A stretch of 64,000 nt of DNA from Chloroflexota bacterium (GTDB lineage Bacteria; Chloroflexota; UBA11872; VXOZ01), in contig OZ219802.1 in assembly GCA_964291655.2 (NCBI GenBank), positions 960,001 through 1,024,000 of the forward strand. Direction: 5' to 3'. Position numbers and translations under genes: made by a program. The notes below the pieces were generated by a model. That model saw nothing but the letters and a program-made list of their open reading frames with translations, was not told the origin of the DNA and made no database searches. Position 1 is the stretch's first letter; the number at the start of each line of letters is the position of its first letter. Shown in pieces: positions 17,743 through 23,256 of this stretch.

Positions 17743-18993
17743 CTACGCGCCGGCCTCCTGACGTTCTTCAGAAAAGACCGCCTCGGCGAGCACATCCCGC
17801 TCAATCATGCCAACCAGCCGCTCTTCGTCGTCTACTACTGGGATCTTCCCTTCCTGAGGCCACGCTACCGAGAGCGCATCCTCAATACACTGCCCTGCCA
17901 GCACCGGTTCGCAGCGACGGGAGACAGCATATTCGATGGTAGCGCTGCCGTTCCCGGCGGCATCGCGCGCTTCTTTCCGGCAGATTTCTCCCCGATAGCG
18001 GCCATCCTCTGCAATGACGAACGCGGCCTCGACACCGCCAGACTCCAACTGAGCAAGGGCGTCCCGTGCCGTCGTCGTGGGTTTCAAGAGGACTCCACAC
18101 CGTTCCATGACGTAACCGACGGTAACAATCGAAGACGTACGCACGTCGCGCGTGAAGTCGGCCACGTAGTCGTCAATCGGATTCGCCATGATCTCTTCAG
18201 GCGTGCCAATCTGAACGATGGCCCCGTCGCGCATAATGGCGATGCGGCTGCCCAGCTTGGTAGCCTCCGCCAGATCGTGGGTAATAAAGACGATGGTCTT
18301 GTGCAACTGCTCTTGCAGGCGGATAAGCTCATCCTGCATATCCCGCCGGATGAGAGGGTCCAGCGCACTGAAGGGCTCATCCATGAGCAGAATTTCGGGA
18401 TCGCAGGCCAGGGCCCGCGCAAGACCCACGCGCTGTTGCATGCCGCCGCTGAGAGCTGCAGCGTGGTACTCTTCCCAGCCATCCAGACCGACCACTCGCA
18501 GCAGTTCGGCCGCTCGCGCTCGCCGGTCTTCCCGCGGCACCCCTTGCACTTCCAAGCCCCAGGCGACGTTATCGATTACCGTGCGGTGGGGCAACAGGCC
18601 GAAGTACTGGAAAACCATGCCGGTCTTCTGCCGGCGCGCCTGCGTGAGTTCTTCATCGGTATAGCTGAGAATGTCCTCACCGTCGATGATGACTTCACCG
18701 ACGGTCGGCTCTATGAGACGTATGAGACAACGCACCAGCGTGGACTTGCCACTGCCGGAGAGTCCCATTACGACAAAGGTCTCGCCCTGATGGACGTCGA
18801 AGCTCACGTCGTGCAACGCCAGCACCGAGTCCAACTCGTCCTGGACTTCGTCCTTCGTCTTACCCTCGAGGGTCTCCCCCACGTCAGGTCCGTCGGCCGG
18901 TCCAAACACCTTCCACAGGCCACGCACGCTCACGCGCACTTCGCCGTTGGCCGAAGTCGGTAAATCCGGCAATTCTTCCGTTGCTTGGTTCAT
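17743..18993 (-). CDS. proV: Glycine betaine/proline ABC transporter ATP-binding protein with CBS domains
   Basis: GLSGSGKS, LSGGMQQRVGLARAL, LMDEPFSALDPLIR, FITHD. Confidence 0.93.
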   Translation of the reverse strand: MNQATEELPDLPTSANGEVRVSVRGLWKVFGPADGPDVGETLEGKTKDEVQDELDSVLALHDVSFDVHQGETFVVMGLSGSGKSTLVRCLIRLIEPTVGEVIIDGEDILSYTDEELTQARRQKTGMVFQYFGLLPHRTVIDNVAWGLEVQGVPREDRRARAAELLRVVGLDGWEEYHAAALSGGMQQRVGLARALACDPEILLMDEPFSALDPLIRRDMQDELIRLQEQLHKTIVFITHDLAEATKLGSRIAIMRDGAIVQIGTPEEIMANPIDDYVADFTRDVRTSSIVTVGYVMERCGVLLKPTTTARDALAQLESGGVEAAFVIAEDGRYRGEICRKEARDAAGNGSATIEYAVSRRCEPVLAGQCIEDALSVAWPQEGKIPVVDDEERLVGMIERDVLAEAVFSEERQEAGA

Positions 18994-19265
18994 GACTACT
19001 CTTCGACCTCCCTGAAGTTACCGGCAGCTCGTTGCCGCAGATCGAAGCACTGTAGCTTCAGGATCGCAACACCAACCCCGCAGTAGCCATAGTCAGGGTA
19101 CCAAGCTGGTATGCCCCTTGCAAGCGTTTTGCACTATTTCTAAGCCAGAAGCCTGTCTGGTCAATGCAATAGGACAACCCCTCTCATTGACCCGCGCGCA
19201 CGCAAAGAGTCATACTGAGGGAGACGGATCGGCACACGCAATAACGCACCAAGAGGAGTACATCC

Positions 19266-19502
19266 ATGGCCGAGAAGCAACGTCTCAGCATCGAATACTG
19301 CACCTCGTGAGGCTACCTCCCAAAAGCCGTCAGTTTGACGGAACAAGTGCTGGATAAGCACGAACAGAACATCGAGAGCCTGGAGCTCATCCCCTCCGGC
19401 GGCGGCGCCTTCGAAGTCACCCTGGACAACAACGTCATCTTCTCCAAACACCAGGAAGGCCGCTTCCCCGAGCACGACGAGGTGCTGAAACACCTAGGGT
19501 AG
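19266..19502 (+). CDS. SelW/SelT/Rdx family selenoprotein (CxxU)
   Basis: GAGGAG SD then MAEKQRLSIEYCTS-TGA(19308-10)-GYLPKAVSLTEQVL...LIPSGGGAFEVTLDNNVIFSKHQEGRFPEHDEVLKHLG. The Rdx motifs GxFEV and SK..GRFP follow the UGA. Confidence 0.92.
19327..19341 (+). promoter_or_regulatory. Candidate bacterial SECIS element for the Rdx gene
   Basis: CCGTCA-GTT-TGACGG hairpin, apical GU 23 nt after the UGA. Confidence 0.65.
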
Positions 19503-19575
19503 GTGTCTAGCAACATTGTCACTTTCCCGTCCGATATAAGTAATCCTGTTCACGTGCTTCAGCGTTAACGCAGAC

Positions 19576-19855
19576 AATGCCGGCTTCGTGTAAGCGAGGA
19601 CCGGCGTTGGGGGGTTAATGTCCGTGTCAAAAAGGACTTGCACCTCTTTGGCTTACTCTTCTTTGCTCGAGGGATTAACCCAACCGGGACAGTCAAGTCC
19701 CTTACCTGCGCTACAATGCATCATCGGCGGCTGTTACTTTGATAAACTGGCAATTGGTGGTTGCAATCACTAACCCACGTTGTTTCGTGCGAGCACCCAA
19801 CTCTTAAAATAAAACCGTTGCAGAATTGCCCTGACTTAGTAATTCGCTTCCGCCG
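19576..19855 (+). ncRNA. Candidate structured ncRNA or leader upstream of the reverse transcriptase
   Basis: Nested complementary segments CGGCGG/CCGCCG, TTACT/AGTAA, GGCAATT/AATTGCC with two internal hairpins, plus upstream stems. No ORF. Inferred from pairing only. Confidence 0.45.
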
Positions 19856-19913
19856 TACTTAGTTTCGGAGGGACGCAATTGTGGTAAGCAAAATTACATG
19901 AGGTGTTGCAACG

Positions 19914-21434
19914 ATGAGTGTTGACAAGGATTTCTTGCTAAATGCCTTATTGAAGCACAATTTCCTGCCAACTCAAAAGCGAGAGAAAGAGGAGATTCCA
20001 CAAATAATCACCTCAGGTGCATTCACAGAGTGTGTAGCAAGAAGACTTGCAGACTGCAAGGAGGCTCGAGCGGACCACCCTGGTTACGACACGGTCGAGT
20101 ACAGATTGACGCGATTCAACGGCGTGGCGCGGGTTTGCTCGATACCCCACCCTAAGGCCTATGCGACCCTTGCGTTGAGCATTGCCGAGAATTGGGAGCA
20201 ACTCAAGTACATATCAGAGAACACTGTCAGCAAGATTGTCCCAAGGAAACATGAAGATGGCAGGATCATCGTGATGGAGTACGAGAACCTGCCGAAAGCC
20301 CATCAAGCCTTAGAATACTCGTTTGGGCGCCACTTCATGGTGCGCACGGATATATCGAACTTCTTTCCCAGCATTTATTCGCACTCAATTCCTTGGGCGA
20401 CTGTAGGTAATGCCAAGGCAAAGAAAGCCATAGGAAAGAATTCCAAATGGTACAACAGTCTCGACCGCGCAATCCGAATGACTAAGAGAAGTGAAACAGG
20501 CGGTATTGCAATTGGCCCAGCTACTTCTAACATAATTGCCGAATCAATTCTCGCTCGCGTGGACTGTAAACTGGGAGATGAGTACACCTATACAAGATAC
20601 ATAGACGACTATACGGCATATTGCGAGAGCCACGAGAGAGCACAGGGCTTTGTACTATCACTTGCGGAAGAACTGAGCAAGTACAAACTAGCACTAAATA
20701 TTGGCAAGACGGAATTCATTCCGCTCCCACAAGCCACTGGTGAAAACTGGATTGTTGACCTAAAGAATGCTTTGCTAGATAGAGGCGATTTGTCCCCCGA
20801 AGGTGCGATCAACTACCTGGACTTCGCACTCCGTCTTTCGAGACAAACACCCGATGGTAGCGTATTGAAGTACAGTCTAAAGGCACTGCTTAGTACGGTT
20901 TTGGATTCAAGATTTGACGTAGATGGTGAAGTAGTGGACATTGTACTTCATTATGCTCTGAATCTATCGTTTCATCAGCCTGTCCTACTCCCACTGCTTG
21001 AAAGGCTTTTCGACGAAGCATTGTCGGTGGGGGGAGATTTTCGGCACAAAGATGAGCTCCAGGCCCTATTGTGTGAACATGTACGCCTACGCCACTCTGA
21101 TGCAATCTCTTGGATATTGTACTTTTCCGTCAAGTACGGAGTGCCAATACGAGATTGCTGTGCCTGTCGAATTGTGGAGCTTCAAGACTGCATACCAATG
21201 CTACTCCTAAGTCAATCTGGAGATGAGAGCCATGAGAATAGAGTTATCGAGTTCGCCAGGGGGTTAGAGAAGAGTAACCTATATGGGCTTGACCAACAGT
21301 GGCTGCTCCTGTATGAGTTGGTATTCGATGAAAGAATGGAAAACCCCTATCGGAAGAAAGATTCATGCGAAACAACCTTCGATATCATGAAGTCAGAGGG
21401 TGTGAGATTCATCAGGCCTCCGACCGTAACATAA
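19914..21434 (+). CDS. Reverse transcriptase, UG/Abi (defence-associated, Drt4-like) with helical C-terminal region
   Basis: IPHP, RTDISNFFPSIYSHSIPWA, GIAIGPATSNIIAE, YTRYIDDY, LNIGKT. No retron NAxxH/VTG motifs and no intron maturase or endonuclease domain. AT-richer than flanks. Subfamily is tentative. Confidence 0.88.
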   Translation: MSVDKDFLLNALLKHNFLPTQKREKEEIPQIITSGAFTECVARRLADCKEARADHPGYDTVEYRLTRFNGVARVCSIPHPKAYATLALSIAENWEQLKYISENTVSKIVPRKHEDGRIIVMEYENLPKAHQALEYSFGRHFMVRTDISNFFPSIYSHSIPWATVGNAKAKKAIGKNSKWYNSLDRAIRMTKRSETGGIAIGPATSNIIAESILARVDCKLGDEYTYTRYIDDYTAYCESHERAQGFVLSLAEELSKYKLALNIGKTEFIPLPQATGENWIVDLKNALLDRGDLSPEGAINYLDFALRLSRQTPDGSVLKYSLKALLSTVLDSRFDVDGEVVDIVLHYALNLSFHQPVLLPLLERLFDEALSVGGDFRHKDELQALLCEHVRLRHSDAISWILYFSVKYGVPIRDCCACRIVELQDCIPMLLLSQSGDESHENRVIEFARGLEKSNLYGLDQQWLLLYELVFDERMENPYRKKDSCETTFDIMKSEGVRFIRPPTVT

Positions 21435-21527
21435 CTACCATCACAGGATCCAAACCTAAACGCGTAGTATTGCGGTGTTCGGTGGATCTAGTCCGGAAGT
21501 CTTGTTCATATCGAGTGTGAGAAAGCA

Positions 21528-22091
21528 TTGAGTCTTTCCAACCCGCCTACAAAGACCCGGCGTCGCCGGTCGATTCGCCTGAAGGACTACGACTACGCGC
21601 AGGCAGGCGCGTACTTCGTCACCATCGTCGTCCAAAGGCGGACTTGCCTGTTCGGTGAGGTTGTGGATGCCAGCATGCGCCTGAACTAGACAGGCCAATT
21701 GGTGTCCGATGCCTGGCAGTGTCTTGGGACCCAATACCCTTACGTGGTATTGGACGAATATATTGTCATGCCGAACCATCTCCACGGCCTCATCATGATC
21801 ACTGACGAAACGCGTAGGGGCGGTTCGCGAACCGCCCCTACTTCGCCTGCGGTTAAACGCAAACCCTTGGGACGCCTCATTGGCGCGTTCAAGACCGTCA
21901 GCACGAAACGGGTCAATCTCGCGCATGGTCTTTCCGCCAGTCCCTTGTGGCAGCGGAATTACTTCGAACACGTGGTGCGCAGCGAAGATTCCATGACTAA
22001 GATCCGCCAGTACATCCACGATAACCCGGCGCGCTGGGAACTCGACCGGGAGAATCCTTTGGTAGCAGGCATGCAACCAAGACGTAGTTGA
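21528..22091 (+). pseudogene. REP-associated tyrosine transposase (RAYT, Y1 HUH) with in-frame TAG
   Basis: RRSIRLKDYDY, YFVTI, TAG at 21687-89, VMPNHLHG (HUH), LIGAFK, WQRNYFEHVVR, YIHDNP. Confidence 0.88.
21814..21841. repeat. Perfect 28-bp palindromic REP inside the RAYT coding sequence
   Basis: GTAGGGGCGGTTCGCGAACCGCCCCTAC, identical copy at 22117-22144. Confidence 0.95.
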
Positions 22092-22116
22092 CCGCATTGG
22101 GTGCGGCTGTATCCCG

Positions 22117-22385
22117 GTAGGGGCGGTTCGCGAACCGCCCCTACCTTTGCCAGCAAGCAAACGCATGCCTCTGGGTCGCCTCATTGGCGCATTCAAGACG
22201 GTAAGTAGGAAACGGGTGAATTGTGCCTAGGGGCTCTCCGGCAGTCCCCTTTGGCAGCGCAACTTCTTTGAGCACATCGTGCGCAGCGAAGATTCACTGA
22301 TGAAAATTCGTCAATAAAAAAACGATAACCCGGCGCGCTGGAGATTCGATCGGGAGTACCCATTGGCAGCGCCATAGGAACCAGG
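22117..22385 (+). pseudogene. Degenerate duplicate of REP plus RAYT 3' half
   Basis: After the second REP: KRMPLGRLIGAFKTVSRKRVNCA*GLSGSPLWQRNFFEHIVRSEDSLMKIRQ*KNDNPARW, paralogous to 21857-22040, with stops. Confidence 0.85.
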
Positions 22386-22480
22386 GGTTGTGACCGCCTC
22401 TGCGGAAGCCAACGCCTAACGGCGCGCCTGCTTGCCTGACTGTCCGGTGGCAGAGGTAACCTGTGTCGTCAGTCTACGTC

Positions 22481-22518
22481 TTGTACTTTTTCCTCTAACT
22501 AGTCTAGTATAGACTAGT
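22481..22518 (+). promoter_or_regulatory. Putative TA promoter with palindromic operator
   Basis: TTGTAC-18-TAGTAT overlapped by the perfect inverted repeat ACTAGTCTA-GTA-TAGACTAGT (22498-22518). Confidence 0.6.
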
Positions 22519-22561: not shown

Positions 22562-22840
22562 GTGAAAGAACCGGCTACCCAGCGTGTTTGGACCGTGGCG
22601 GAGGCCAAGGCGCGGCTTTCTGAAATCCTGCGGCTCGCGGAATCCGAAGGGCCGCAGCGTATCGGCGCCAGGAAAGCCTTCATCATAGTGCCGGCCCGGG
22701 TCTGGGCCGAGAAGGAATCGCAGCGCAAACCGCTCGGTCGCTGGCTGATCGAGAATACGCCGCGTGGGGCTGAGCTTGCAATTCCCAGCCGCCGCGAGCG
22801 TGGACGCACAATCCCGTTTGTCAACGAAGCAGACGAATGA
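22562..22840 (+). CDS. Phd/YefM-type antitoxin
   Basis: WTVAEAKARLSEILRLAESEGPQRI. GTG start after AAGGAG. ATGA overlap with the toxin. Confidence 0.8.
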   Translation: MKEPATQRVWTVAEAKARLSEILRLAESEGPQRIGARKAFIIVPARVWAEKESQRKPLGRWLIENTPRGAELAIPSRRERGRTIPFVNEADE

Positions 22841-23256
22841 GCGGCTACCTCCTGGACACAAACGTGGTCTCGGAGTTAGCAAGGCGGATTCCACACCCGG
22901 CCGTTATTCGTTTCCTGGACACGCAGGATGACCTTTGGCTATCGGCTATCGTCCTGGGAGAGCTTTCGTTGGGCGTTCACCTTCTCCCACATGGCCGCCG
23001 TCGCGATAGCTTGAGCGACTGGTTGTCACAATTTATAGCGGACTTCGACCAGCGTGTATTGCCCATCGACCGGTGGGAAGCCGAGCGAGCCGCTGCGTTC
23101 CAGGCACACGCGCGCCGAGAAGGTAGAGTGTTGCAACTGGCCGACGCGCTCATCGCGGGAACGGCAGTGACGAACGATCTGACGATAGCAACGCGGAACG
23201 TCAGGGATTTCGATGGCCTGGACGTTGCCGTTATCAATCCCTGGGATGTCCCATGA
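22837..23256 (+). CDS. vapC: PIN-domain VapC toxin
   Basis: YLLDTNVVSE, LGEL, DALIAGTA, ATRNVRDF, INPW. Confidence 0.92.
   Translation: MSGYLLDTNVVSELARRIPHPAVIRFLDTQDDLWLSAIVLGELSLGVHLLPHGRRRDSLSDWLSQFIADFDQRVLPIDRWEAERAAAFQAHARREGRVLQLADALIAGTAVTNDLTIATRNVRDFDGLDVAVINPWDVP

What the first reader, a model, noticed from the sequence alone, without database searches (positions are those of the whole stretch)
19503..21434. DRT/UG-type reverse transcriptase preceded by a gene-free, highly pairable 410-bp leader: candidate RT-ncRNA defence system
Seen: a stand-alone 506-aa RT (YIDD) lacking retron and intron hallmarks, AT-richer than its neighbours. Directly upstream is a closed 131-nt domain in which CGGCGG(19725-30) pairs CCGCCG(19850-55), TTACT(19734-38) pairs AGTAA(19838-42) and GGCAATT(19749-55) pairs AATTGCC(19824-30). 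It encloses the hairpins TGGTGGT-TGCA-ATCACTA and CACG-TTGTTT-CGTG, and a TACAAT -10-like box (19712-17) sits just before its 5' end. Known: DRT2, DRT3, DRT9 and DRT10 use an adjacent ncRNA as template, whereas DRT4 (UG15) was described as a single gene. Inference: the protein looks Drt4-like to me, so a cognate ncRNA would be an undescribed arrangement. Alternatively it belongs to a different UG clade.
Basis: partly seen in the sequence, partly recalled or inferred. Interest (0 to 1): 0.85.

Follow-up and report, generated by a model that had tools for sequence, protein, structure and literature searches.

The report
Ordinary single-gene DRT4 defence gene
This is a standard one-gene DRT4 anti-phage reverse transcriptase that one strain acquired on a small piece of foreign DNA, and the stretch in front of it shows no sign of being a partner RNA.

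Summary
The ORF at 19914-21434 is a genuine Drt4 (UG15, class 1 UG/Abi). It scores 522.9 bits against the NCBIfam equivalog (cut-off 450), 6.8e-169 against PADLOC Drt4, and 3.5e-105 against solved UG15 structures. The priming Tyr, the polymerase Asp residues and the RNase His/Asp are all conserved. It lies on a strain-specific, AT-richer insertion of about 1.9 kb (~19610-21527). None of the 16 other genomes of the genus has it.

- The 131-nt domain has z -1.67, and 11 of 200 shuffles fold as well.
- The island-specific 304-nt leader has z +0.23.
- The z of -2.88 for the whole 411 nt comes from the first ~108 nt. These belong to the upstream gene's 3' end, including a hairpin kept across the genus.

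No relative shares the leader. Searches by blastn, nhmmer, tblastx and a covariance model over 162 homologous loci found nothing. Of 56 relatives at 39% identity or more, 32 have an upstream ORF ending within 50 nt of the RT start, often hsdS.

Published work shows DRT4 to be protein-primed and template-independent. The ncRNA idea is not supported.

The parts
19579..19605 (+). Hairpin at the 3' end of the upstream Rdx/SelW-like gene (GCCGGCTTCG / CGAGG-A-CCGGC). It is core genome, not part of the RT cassette, and it marks the left edge of the insertion.
   Evidence: It is in the MFE. Hairpins with different but pairing letters sit at the same position after the same gene in L010, L012 and L018.
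19610..21527 (+). Strain-specific, AT-richer insertion carrying the leader, drt4 and a 93-nt 3' flank.
   Evidence: In G008 the two flanks (98% and 92% identical) lie 204 bp apart. The edges were refined by eye and by MAFFT. GC is given. No Drt4-level match was found in the 16 other genomes of the genus; one, G014, has a distant RT hit (31% identity over residues 131-267, E 2e-11).
19610..19913 (+). Island-specific non-coding leader.
   Evidence: Fold z +0.23; domain z -1.67. No Rfam match. No relative in 162 loci, in plasmids, in phages or elsewhere in the own genome.
19901..19906 (+). GAGGTG, a Shine-Dalgarno-like site 7 nt before the ATG.
   Evidence: Read. In the 304-nt MFE it pairs with CACCTC at 19641-19646, but that pair is absent from the centroid.
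19914..21434 (+). drt4 (UG15), 506 aa. Residues: priming Y123; polymerase D146, Y229-I-D231-D232; RNase H157 and D184; DNA-contact S316, K319, Y320. The helical-repeat C-terminal domain is present, but there is no counterpart of the E. coli CTD (residues 508-540).
   Evidence: Residue roles come from passages.
21435..21527 (+). 3' flank of the insertion, running up to the truncated start of the RAYT pseudogene.
   Evidence: No match in the relatives' loci.

Best explanation
This is a canonical single-gene DRT4 (UG15, class 1 UG/Abi) anti-phage system. It arrived by horizontal transfer as a cassette of about 1.9 kb, inserted between the 3' hairpin of an Rdx/SelW-like selenoprotein gene and a REP-associated transposase (RAYT) pseudogene.

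Inferred from the family: the protein forms a hexamer and primes on its own Tyr123. It makes purine-rich single-stranded DNA without any template. When phage SSB-like proteins or raised dNTP levels are sensed through that DNA, it switches on its His157/Asp184 RNase and aborts the infection.

The ~300 nt in front of the gene are ordinary cassette DNA carrying the promoter, 5' UTR and ribosome-binding site. They are not a template or scaffold RNA.

Shown here: family membership, conserved residues, the limits of the insertion, the lack of excess structure, and the lack of any conserved upstream element in relatives. Inferred: the activity, the hexamer, the trigger and the position of the promoter.
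For: Family membership:
- NCBIfam Drt4 equivalog 522.9 bits, cut-off 450.
- PADLOC Drt4 6.8e-169.
- Solved UG15 chains 3.5e-105 over residues 4-500.

Residues: Y123, D146, H157, D184 and D232 are invariant, and D231 is kept in at least 90%, in the 42-sequence alignment A1. They align with Ec Y125, D149, H160, D192, D241 and D240 (roles).

Insertion: G008 has both flanks 204 bp apart. No Drt4-level match was found in the 16 other genus genomes; one distant RT hit is in G014.

Leader:
- z +0.23; domain z -1.67, 11 of 200 shuffles as good.
- Rfam gave only two chance-level hits at E >= 0.48.
- The single-sequence CM found only itself in 82 + 80 loci.
- blastn, nhmmer and tblastx found nothing outside the coding start.

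Upstream space in relatives:
- Of 155 loci with usable upstream sequence, 54 have an ORF of 90 aa or more ending within 50 nt of the RT start.
- Among the 56 loci at 39% identity or more, the split is 32 at <=50 nt, 7 at 51-150, 11 at 151-300, 2 at >300, and 4 with no ORF found.
- 9 of 9 such upstream ORFs tested are hsdS (Pfam Methylase_S). Seven overlap the RT start by 1-7 nt; L019 ends 28 nt before it.

Literature (passages only):
- DRT4 'does not require ncRNA'; purified protein plus dNTPs makes protein-linked random ssDNA (PMC12783706).
- Two 2026 preprints agree.
- A recoded UG15 ORF still defends (PMC9226505).
Against: - No relative closer than 59% protein identity could be fetched with its flanks. 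The 71%-identical P0002 and the 72%-identical partial P0112 lie on contigs I could not reach, so a very young, lineage-private RNA cannot be tested by covariation.
- A single-sequence covariance model has little power at this distance.
- No RNA data exist for this strain, so the transcript's start and any processing are unknown.
- The published E. coli constructs kept 'native promoter sequences', so an upstream requirement was not separately deleted in the passages I read.
The domain begins 8 nt after a -10-like box.
- This protein lacks the E. coli CTD that is needed there for trigger recognition, so some part of its activation may differ.
Confidence: 0.86

Rival explanations
1. The leader is a lineage-private cis-regulatory 5' UTR. 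It would hold drt4 translation or mRNA stability down, for example by pairing CACCUC (19641-46) with the Shine-Dalgarno GAGGUG (19901-06), because constitutive ssDNA synthesis is costly. It would not be a template.
For: The 304-nt MFE pairs the two hexamers. The leader is long compared with relatives: only 2 of 56 loci at 39% identity or more have more than 300 nt upstream. It travelled with the gene on the insertion.
Against: That pairing is absent from the centroid, and the whole leader folds no better than shuffles (z +0.23). There is no conservation to test it against. Six complementary bases 255 nt apart are easily chance.
Confidence: 0.09
2. The 131-nt domain (19725-19855) is a cognate ncRNA that the RT uses as template or scaffold, as in DRT2, DRT9 and DRT10. 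This would be an undescribed DRT4 arrangement, and it is the reader's reading.
For: The nested helices exist and are in the MFE. A -10-like TACAAT sits just upstream. Mestre et al. raise the possibility of ncRNAs in further UG groups (PMC9226505, passage).
Against: - Domain z is -1.67 with 11 of 200 shuffles as good.
- No homologue was found beside 162 relatives.
- 32 of 56 close relatives have 50 nt or less upstream, often overlapping hsdS.
- The protein keeps the priming Tyr and the helical-repeat domain of template-independent class 1 enzymes.
- Purified DRT4 polymerises without RNA (passages).
- No -35 partner was found.
Confidence: 0.02
3. The gene is an inactive relic: a horizontally acquired RT decaying beside a transposase pseudogene, with the leader as junk.
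For: The neighbouring RAYT is broken. No promoter-like site was found. There are no expression data (one search listed no RNA holder).
Against: The frame is open over the full length, with every catalytic, priming and RNase residue intact, a good GAGGTG ribosome site, and a score over the equivalog cut-off.
Confidence: 0.03

Closest known systems
DRT4 / UG15 of E. coli 21-C8-A (class 1 UG/Abi RT; solved structures such as 21ou, 9vdo, 9ltm)
   Same: It aligns end to end (query 4-500 with chain 6-503, E 3.5e-105). The YxDD motif, priming Tyr, second polymerase Asp, RNase His/Asp and DNA-contact Ser/Lys/Tyr are the same. It is a stand-alone gene with no conserved RNA partner.
   Different: The sequences are distant (about 356 bits in the alignment). 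It lacks the 33-aa C-terminal subdomain (Ec 508-540) that binds the phage SSB gp44. Among its 41 closest relatives, only 1 extends 20 aa or more past its end. It sits on a lone insertion among housekeeping genes, not in a type I R-M operon as many relatives do.
DRT6 / UG12, UG30, AbiK, Abi-P2 (other class 1 UG/Abi enzymes)
   Same: RT palm plus a helical-repeat C-terminal domain, and protein-primed, template-independent synthesis (passages).
   Different: They score far lower: Drt6 286 bits, UG30 182 and AbiK 131, against Drt4 561. The priming residue lies elsewhere in AbiK and Abi-P2 (passage).
Class 2 RT-ncRNA systems (DRT2/UG2, DRT9/UG28, DRT10)
   Same: Only the superficial layout: an RT gene preceded by a few hundred non-coding bases.
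   Different: Those groups have a constant upstream intergenic region with conserved structure and a highly expressed RNA (PMC9226505, passages). Here relatives have no constant upstream region and no shared structure. The protein also carries the class 1 helical-repeat domain. Drt2 scores 18 bits against a cut-off of 390.

Membership tests
Drt4 / UG15 | Score over the curated equivalog cut-off of the family model | tested here: met
   NF041749 scores 522.9 bits against a cut-off of 450, covering model positions 3-489 of 489. The best PADLOC model is Drt4 at 6.8e-169.
Drt4 / UG15 | RT palm with YxDD and the second catalytic Asp (Ec D149, D240, D241) | tested here: met
   D146 and Y229-I-D231-D232. 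D146 and D232 are invariant and D231 is in at least 90% of A1.
Drt4 / UG15 | Priming tyrosine in the palm (Ec Y125) | tested here: met
   Y123 aligns with Ec Y125 and is invariant in 42 sequences. Its role comes from the passage.
Drt4 / UG15 | RNase His/Asp pair (Ec H160, D192) | tested here: met
   H157 and D184 align and are invariant in A1. Their role comes from the passage.
Drt4 / UG15 | C-terminal helical-repeat domain in place of the thumb | tested here: met
   By sequence only: the alignment to the solved chains runs through residues 280-500. No structure was predicted here.
Drt4 / UG15 | Flexible C-terminal subdomain (Ec 508-540) required for gp44-dependent activation | tested here: not met
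   The protein ends 6 residues after the last aligned position. Only 1 of its 41 nearest relatives extends 20 aa or more further. This appears to be a feature of the E. coli branch, not of the family model.
Drt4 / UG15 | Single gene, no RNA or protein partner | tested here: met
   No conserved upstream element was found. The neighbours are a selenoprotein gene and a broken transposase gene that are also adjacent to each other in G008, which lacks the RT.
Drt4 / UG15 | Hexamer, template-independent protein-linked ssDNA synthesis, phage defence | not testable with these tools
   Needs purified protein and plaque assays.
Class 2 RT-ncRNA systems (DRT2, DRT9, DRT10) | Constant non-coding region next to the RT, with conserved or covarying structure across relatives | tested here: not met
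   32 of 56 relatives at 39% identity or more have 50 nt or less upstream. The CM and sequence searches found nothing.
Class 2 RT-ncRNA systems (DRT2, DRT9, DRT10) | RT without an added domain, scoring to the class 2 models | tested here: not met
   Drt2 18 bits (cut-off 390) and Drt3a 34.7 bits (cut-off 200). The protein has the class 1 C-terminal domain.
Class 2 RT-ncRNA systems (DRT2, DRT9, DRT10) | Abundant discrete RNA from the non-coding region | not testable with these tools
   No RNA run was listed for this sequence.

The most novel reading that the evidence does not exclude
This CTD-less branch of DRT4 has picked up a private structured leader RNA (19725-19855). The RNA would act with the enzyme in cis or in trans, for instance as a translational brake or as a decoy or substrate for its RNase, replacing a control step that the E. 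coli enzyme carries out through its C-terminal subdomain.
Probability: 0.04. Interest if true: 0.6.

Novelty: new member of a known kind. Interest (0 to 1): 0.1.

Why it matters
It matters little beyond annotation. The locus adds a distant, CTD-less DRT4 from a lineage where none of the other 16 sampled genomes of the genus has one. It also shows the gene moving as a minimal 1.9-kb cassette.

The useful outcome is negative: DRT4 remains a single-gene, template-independent system. A foldable-looking stretch upstream of a defence RT is not evidence of a partner RNA unless it exceeds shuffles and recurs in relatives.

The frequent placement of drt4 immediately after hsdS in relatives is a small point of interest for how such genes are carried and expressed.

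Tried and rejected
- The search for related loci with the single protein in genome contigs gave no relative. The alignment A1 then gave 80 loci, and 80 more from metagenomes.
- Rfam at E <= 10 over 18900-22500 gave only two chance-level hits: a Streptomyces sRNA at E 0.48 and a human lncRNA at E 6.3.
- In the own genome, the leader has no second copy. The best other match is 33 nt at E 0.0023.
- Plasmid and phage collections gave no match to the 1.9-kb insertion in distant mode.
- Terminal repeats of the insertion: only a 17-nt, 76% inverted pair, taken as chance.
- A coding remnant of a donor hsdS in the leader: none by tblastx or six-frame reading.
- Conserved upstream elements within sub-branches of the family: all-against-all blastn of 71 intergenic stretches of 150 nt or more gave matches only between close kin. 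None involved the window. I did not test those for structure.
- Expression: no RNA holder was listed. Laying two runs showed only contigs identical to the window. X1 spans the whole stretch and may be the source. X5 gives three 151-nt pieces at depth 2-3. Neither says anything about expression or about relatives.
- Supplements were not opened. Supplementary Data 1 and Supplementary Fig. 6 of PMC12783706 (the extent of the 'native promoter', and the conservation across 174 DRT4 systems) could bear on the upstream question.
- In print: searches 'DRT4' + 'reverse transcriptase' (22 papers) and 'UG15' + 'ncRNA' (5 papers). In the passages I read of four of them, none assigns an RNA partner to DRT4.
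Full report
**What is there.**
The ORF at 19914-21434 (+) encodes 506 aa. Its only Pfam family is RVT_1. PADLOC's best model is Drt4 (6.8e-169, 561 bits), well ahead of Drt6 (286 bits), UG30 (182) and AbiK (131). It passes NCBI's Drt4 equivalog model, with 522.9 bits against a cut-off of 450. Against solved structures it aligns over residues 4-500 with the E. coli UG15/DRT4 chains at E 3.5e-105.

**Residues.**
I read residue roles from passages of PMC12783706 and of the preprint 10.64898/2026.10.21.760695, and mapped them with the alignment.

| E. coli residue | Role | Residue here |
|---|---|---|
| Y125 | priming | Y123 |
| D149, D240, D241 | polymerase | D146, D231, D232 (within Y229-I-D-D) |
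| H160, D192 | RNase | H157, D184 |
| S333, K336, Y337 | DNA contacts | S316, K319, Y320 |

These were checked. Y123, D146, H157, D184 and D232 are invariant across the 42 aligned relatives, and D231 is kept in at least 90%.

One difference stands out. The protein stops 6 residues after the last aligned position, whereas the E. coli chain has 37 more. That tail includes the 508-540 subdomain shown to bind the phage SSB gp44. Only 1 of the 41 nearest relatives extends 20 aa or more beyond the query's end, so this whole branch lacks that tail.

**Where it sits.**
The window is G000:C2:960001-1024000. None of the 16 other genomes of the genus has a Drt4-level match; one has a distant RT hit at 31% identity over about 140 residues. 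In the closest genome, G008, the left flank (98% identical) and the right flank (92%) lie 204 bp apart. By BLAST, window 19496-21549 is therefore specific to this strain.

Reading the two sequences side by side, with a MAFFT alignment of nine genus genomes, moves the left edge inward. After the upstream gene's stop codon there are about 75 diverged bases and then a hairpin (19579-19605). G008 has a hairpin at the same place with some different, still pairing letters, and L012 and L018 have hairpins of other sequence at that position. This is the 3' end of the neighbouring gene. The insertion proper is about 19610-21527.

GC is 0.46-0.52 across the RT and 0.55-0.63 on both sides. The neighbours are housekeeping genes: a sulfatase, a glycine-betaine ABC transporter, an Rdx/SelW-like gene, a Y1-transposase remnant, a PIN-domain gene and a ribonucleotide reductase. 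This is not a defence island.

**The leader as a structure.**
The two inner hairpins are replaced by other pairs.

| Stretch | Result |
|---|---|
| 19503-19913, whole 411 nt | z -2.88 |
| 131-nt domain, plus strand | z -1.67; 11 of 200 shuffles as good |
| 131-nt domain, minus strand | z +0.22 |
| 19610-19913, plus strand | z +0.23; 61 of 100 shuffles as good |
| 19610-19913, minus strand | z +0.77 |

The excess stability of the whole stretch therefore comes from the ~108 nt that belong to the upstream gene, including its long hairpin. Rfam gave nothing meaningful. The promoter scan found no sigma-70-like site in 19250-21750. TACAAT at 19712-17 is thus an isolated hexamer, although this organism's promoters may not follow that consensus. 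GAGGTG lies 7 nt before the ATG.

**The leader in relatives.**
I gathered 2 + 80 + 80 homologous loci, at 28-59% protein identity.

- blastn and nhmmer of the leader against 500 nt upstream of 80 of them gave only short matches at E >= 0.18, apart from hits that lie on the first coding bases.
- tblastx and blastn against the whole loci gave nothing.
- A covariance model of the domain found only itself, in 82 loci plus the window and in the 80 metagenome loci. It was built from a single sequence, so its power is low.

The spacing result is more telling. Of 155 loci with usable upstream sequence, 54 have an ORF of 90 aa or more ending within 50 nt of the RT start. Among the 56 loci at 39% identity or more, the split is 32 at <=50 nt, 7 at 51-150, 11 at 151-300, 2 at >300, and 4 with no ORF found. 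These ORFs are mechanical calls.

Nine ORFs that abut the RT (seven overlap its start by 1-7 nt, one ends at it, one ends 28 nt before) were tested, and all nine are type I specificity subunits (Pfam Methylase_S; coordinates). Eleven further metagenome loci show the same C-terminal hsdS-like motif by eye (not Pfam-tested). In much of the family, then, drt4 is translationally coupled to hsdS with no room for an upstream RNA. UG2 and UG28 are the opposite case: a constant upstream region and a conserved structure were what revealed their RNAs (PMC9226505, passages).

**What the family is known to do.**
All of this comes from passages only, not whole papers.

- PMC12783706 states that DRT4 needs no ncRNA or partner, and that purified enzyme plus dNTPs makes protein-linked ssDNA of random sequence primed on Y125. 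The inactive mutant still forms the hexamer and loses its nucleic acid.
- Two October 2026 preprints describe a dimer-of-trimers hexamer, purine-rich template-independent synthesis, activation by phage SSB-like proteins and by raised dNTPs, and an RNase as effector.
- Mestre et al. note that their UG15 ORF was recoded and still defended. This rules out an RNA element inside the ORF for that homologue.
- A caveat: those constructs kept 'native promoter sequences', and I could not see the supplements that define them.

**Verdict.**
The protein identification is right. The proposed RT-ncRNA arrangement is not supported.

The most likely account (0.86) is a plain single-gene DRT4 cassette whose ~300-nt leader carries the promoter, 5' UTR and ribosome site. 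A private cis-regulatory role for the leader remains possible (0.09). The MFE pairs CACCUC at 19641-46 with the Shine-Dalgarno hexamer, but this rests on one six-base complement. A template or scaffold RNA is very unlikely (0.02).

What cannot be excluded with these tools is a very young, lineage-private RNA. The only relatives close enough for covariation (71-72% identity) lie on contigs I could not fetch, and no RNA data were listed.

Noticed in passing
window 19266-19502 (+): An Rdx/SelW-like gene with an in-frame TGA at 19308-19310, giving a C-T-S-U motif. Read with U it makes a 78-aa protein that matches Pfam Rdx at 1.1e-22. The TGA is kept in G008. The genome has a selB over the curated cut-off, 356.8 bits against 242. 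A small hairpin, CCGTCA-GTT-TGACGG at 19327-19341, follows the TGA and could be the insertion signal.
   Followed up: partly
window 21528-22091 (+); L010:1481-2041: A REP-associated Y1 transposase (RAYT) that looks broken here. It has TTG where G008 has the ATG, and an in-frame TAG at 21687-21689 splits it into 53- and 130-aa pieces; the second piece matches Pfam Y1_Tnp. G008 has an intact 186-aa copy. The drt4 insertion replaced the DNA just upstream of its start.
   Followed up: partly
window ~21810-21842 and ~22112-22147: A GC-rich palindrome of about 30 nt (REP-like), present in many copies on both strands in all 17 genomes of the genus. One copy lies inside the RAYT reading frame, both here and in G008, where it encodes RRGGSRTAPT.
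   Followed up: no
L019, L022, L025, L027, L028, L029, L043, L047, L049 (upstream of the RT); by eye also L107, L111, L118, L121, L135, L141, L142, L143 and others: In many relatives drt4 follows hsdS of a type I restriction-modification system directly, often overlapping it by 4 nt. In L019, L022 and L043 the same open frame also carries an N-terminal nucleotidyltransferase domain (Polbeta / NTP_transf_2) ahead of the Methylase_S domain. I did not check whether these are true fusions.
   Followed up: partly
P0001 C-terminus (window ~21414-21434) and alignment A1: This branch of DRT4 lacks the C-terminal subdomain (E. coli 508-540) reported as essential for SSB-triggered activation. Only 1 of the 41 nearest relatives extends 20 aa or more past the query's end. 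Trigger recognition may differ in this branch.
   Followed up: partly
window 19579-19605 (+): A hairpin after the Rdx gene, kept at the same position across the genus with different pairing letters (G008, L012, L018). It has no U-tract after it. It is probably a terminator or a stabilising 3' stem-loop.
   Followed up: partly
window 22837-23256 (+): A PIN-domain gene (Pfam PIN, 1.7e-14). It may be the toxin of a VapBC-type pair; the small ORF just upstream was not examined.
   Followed up: no
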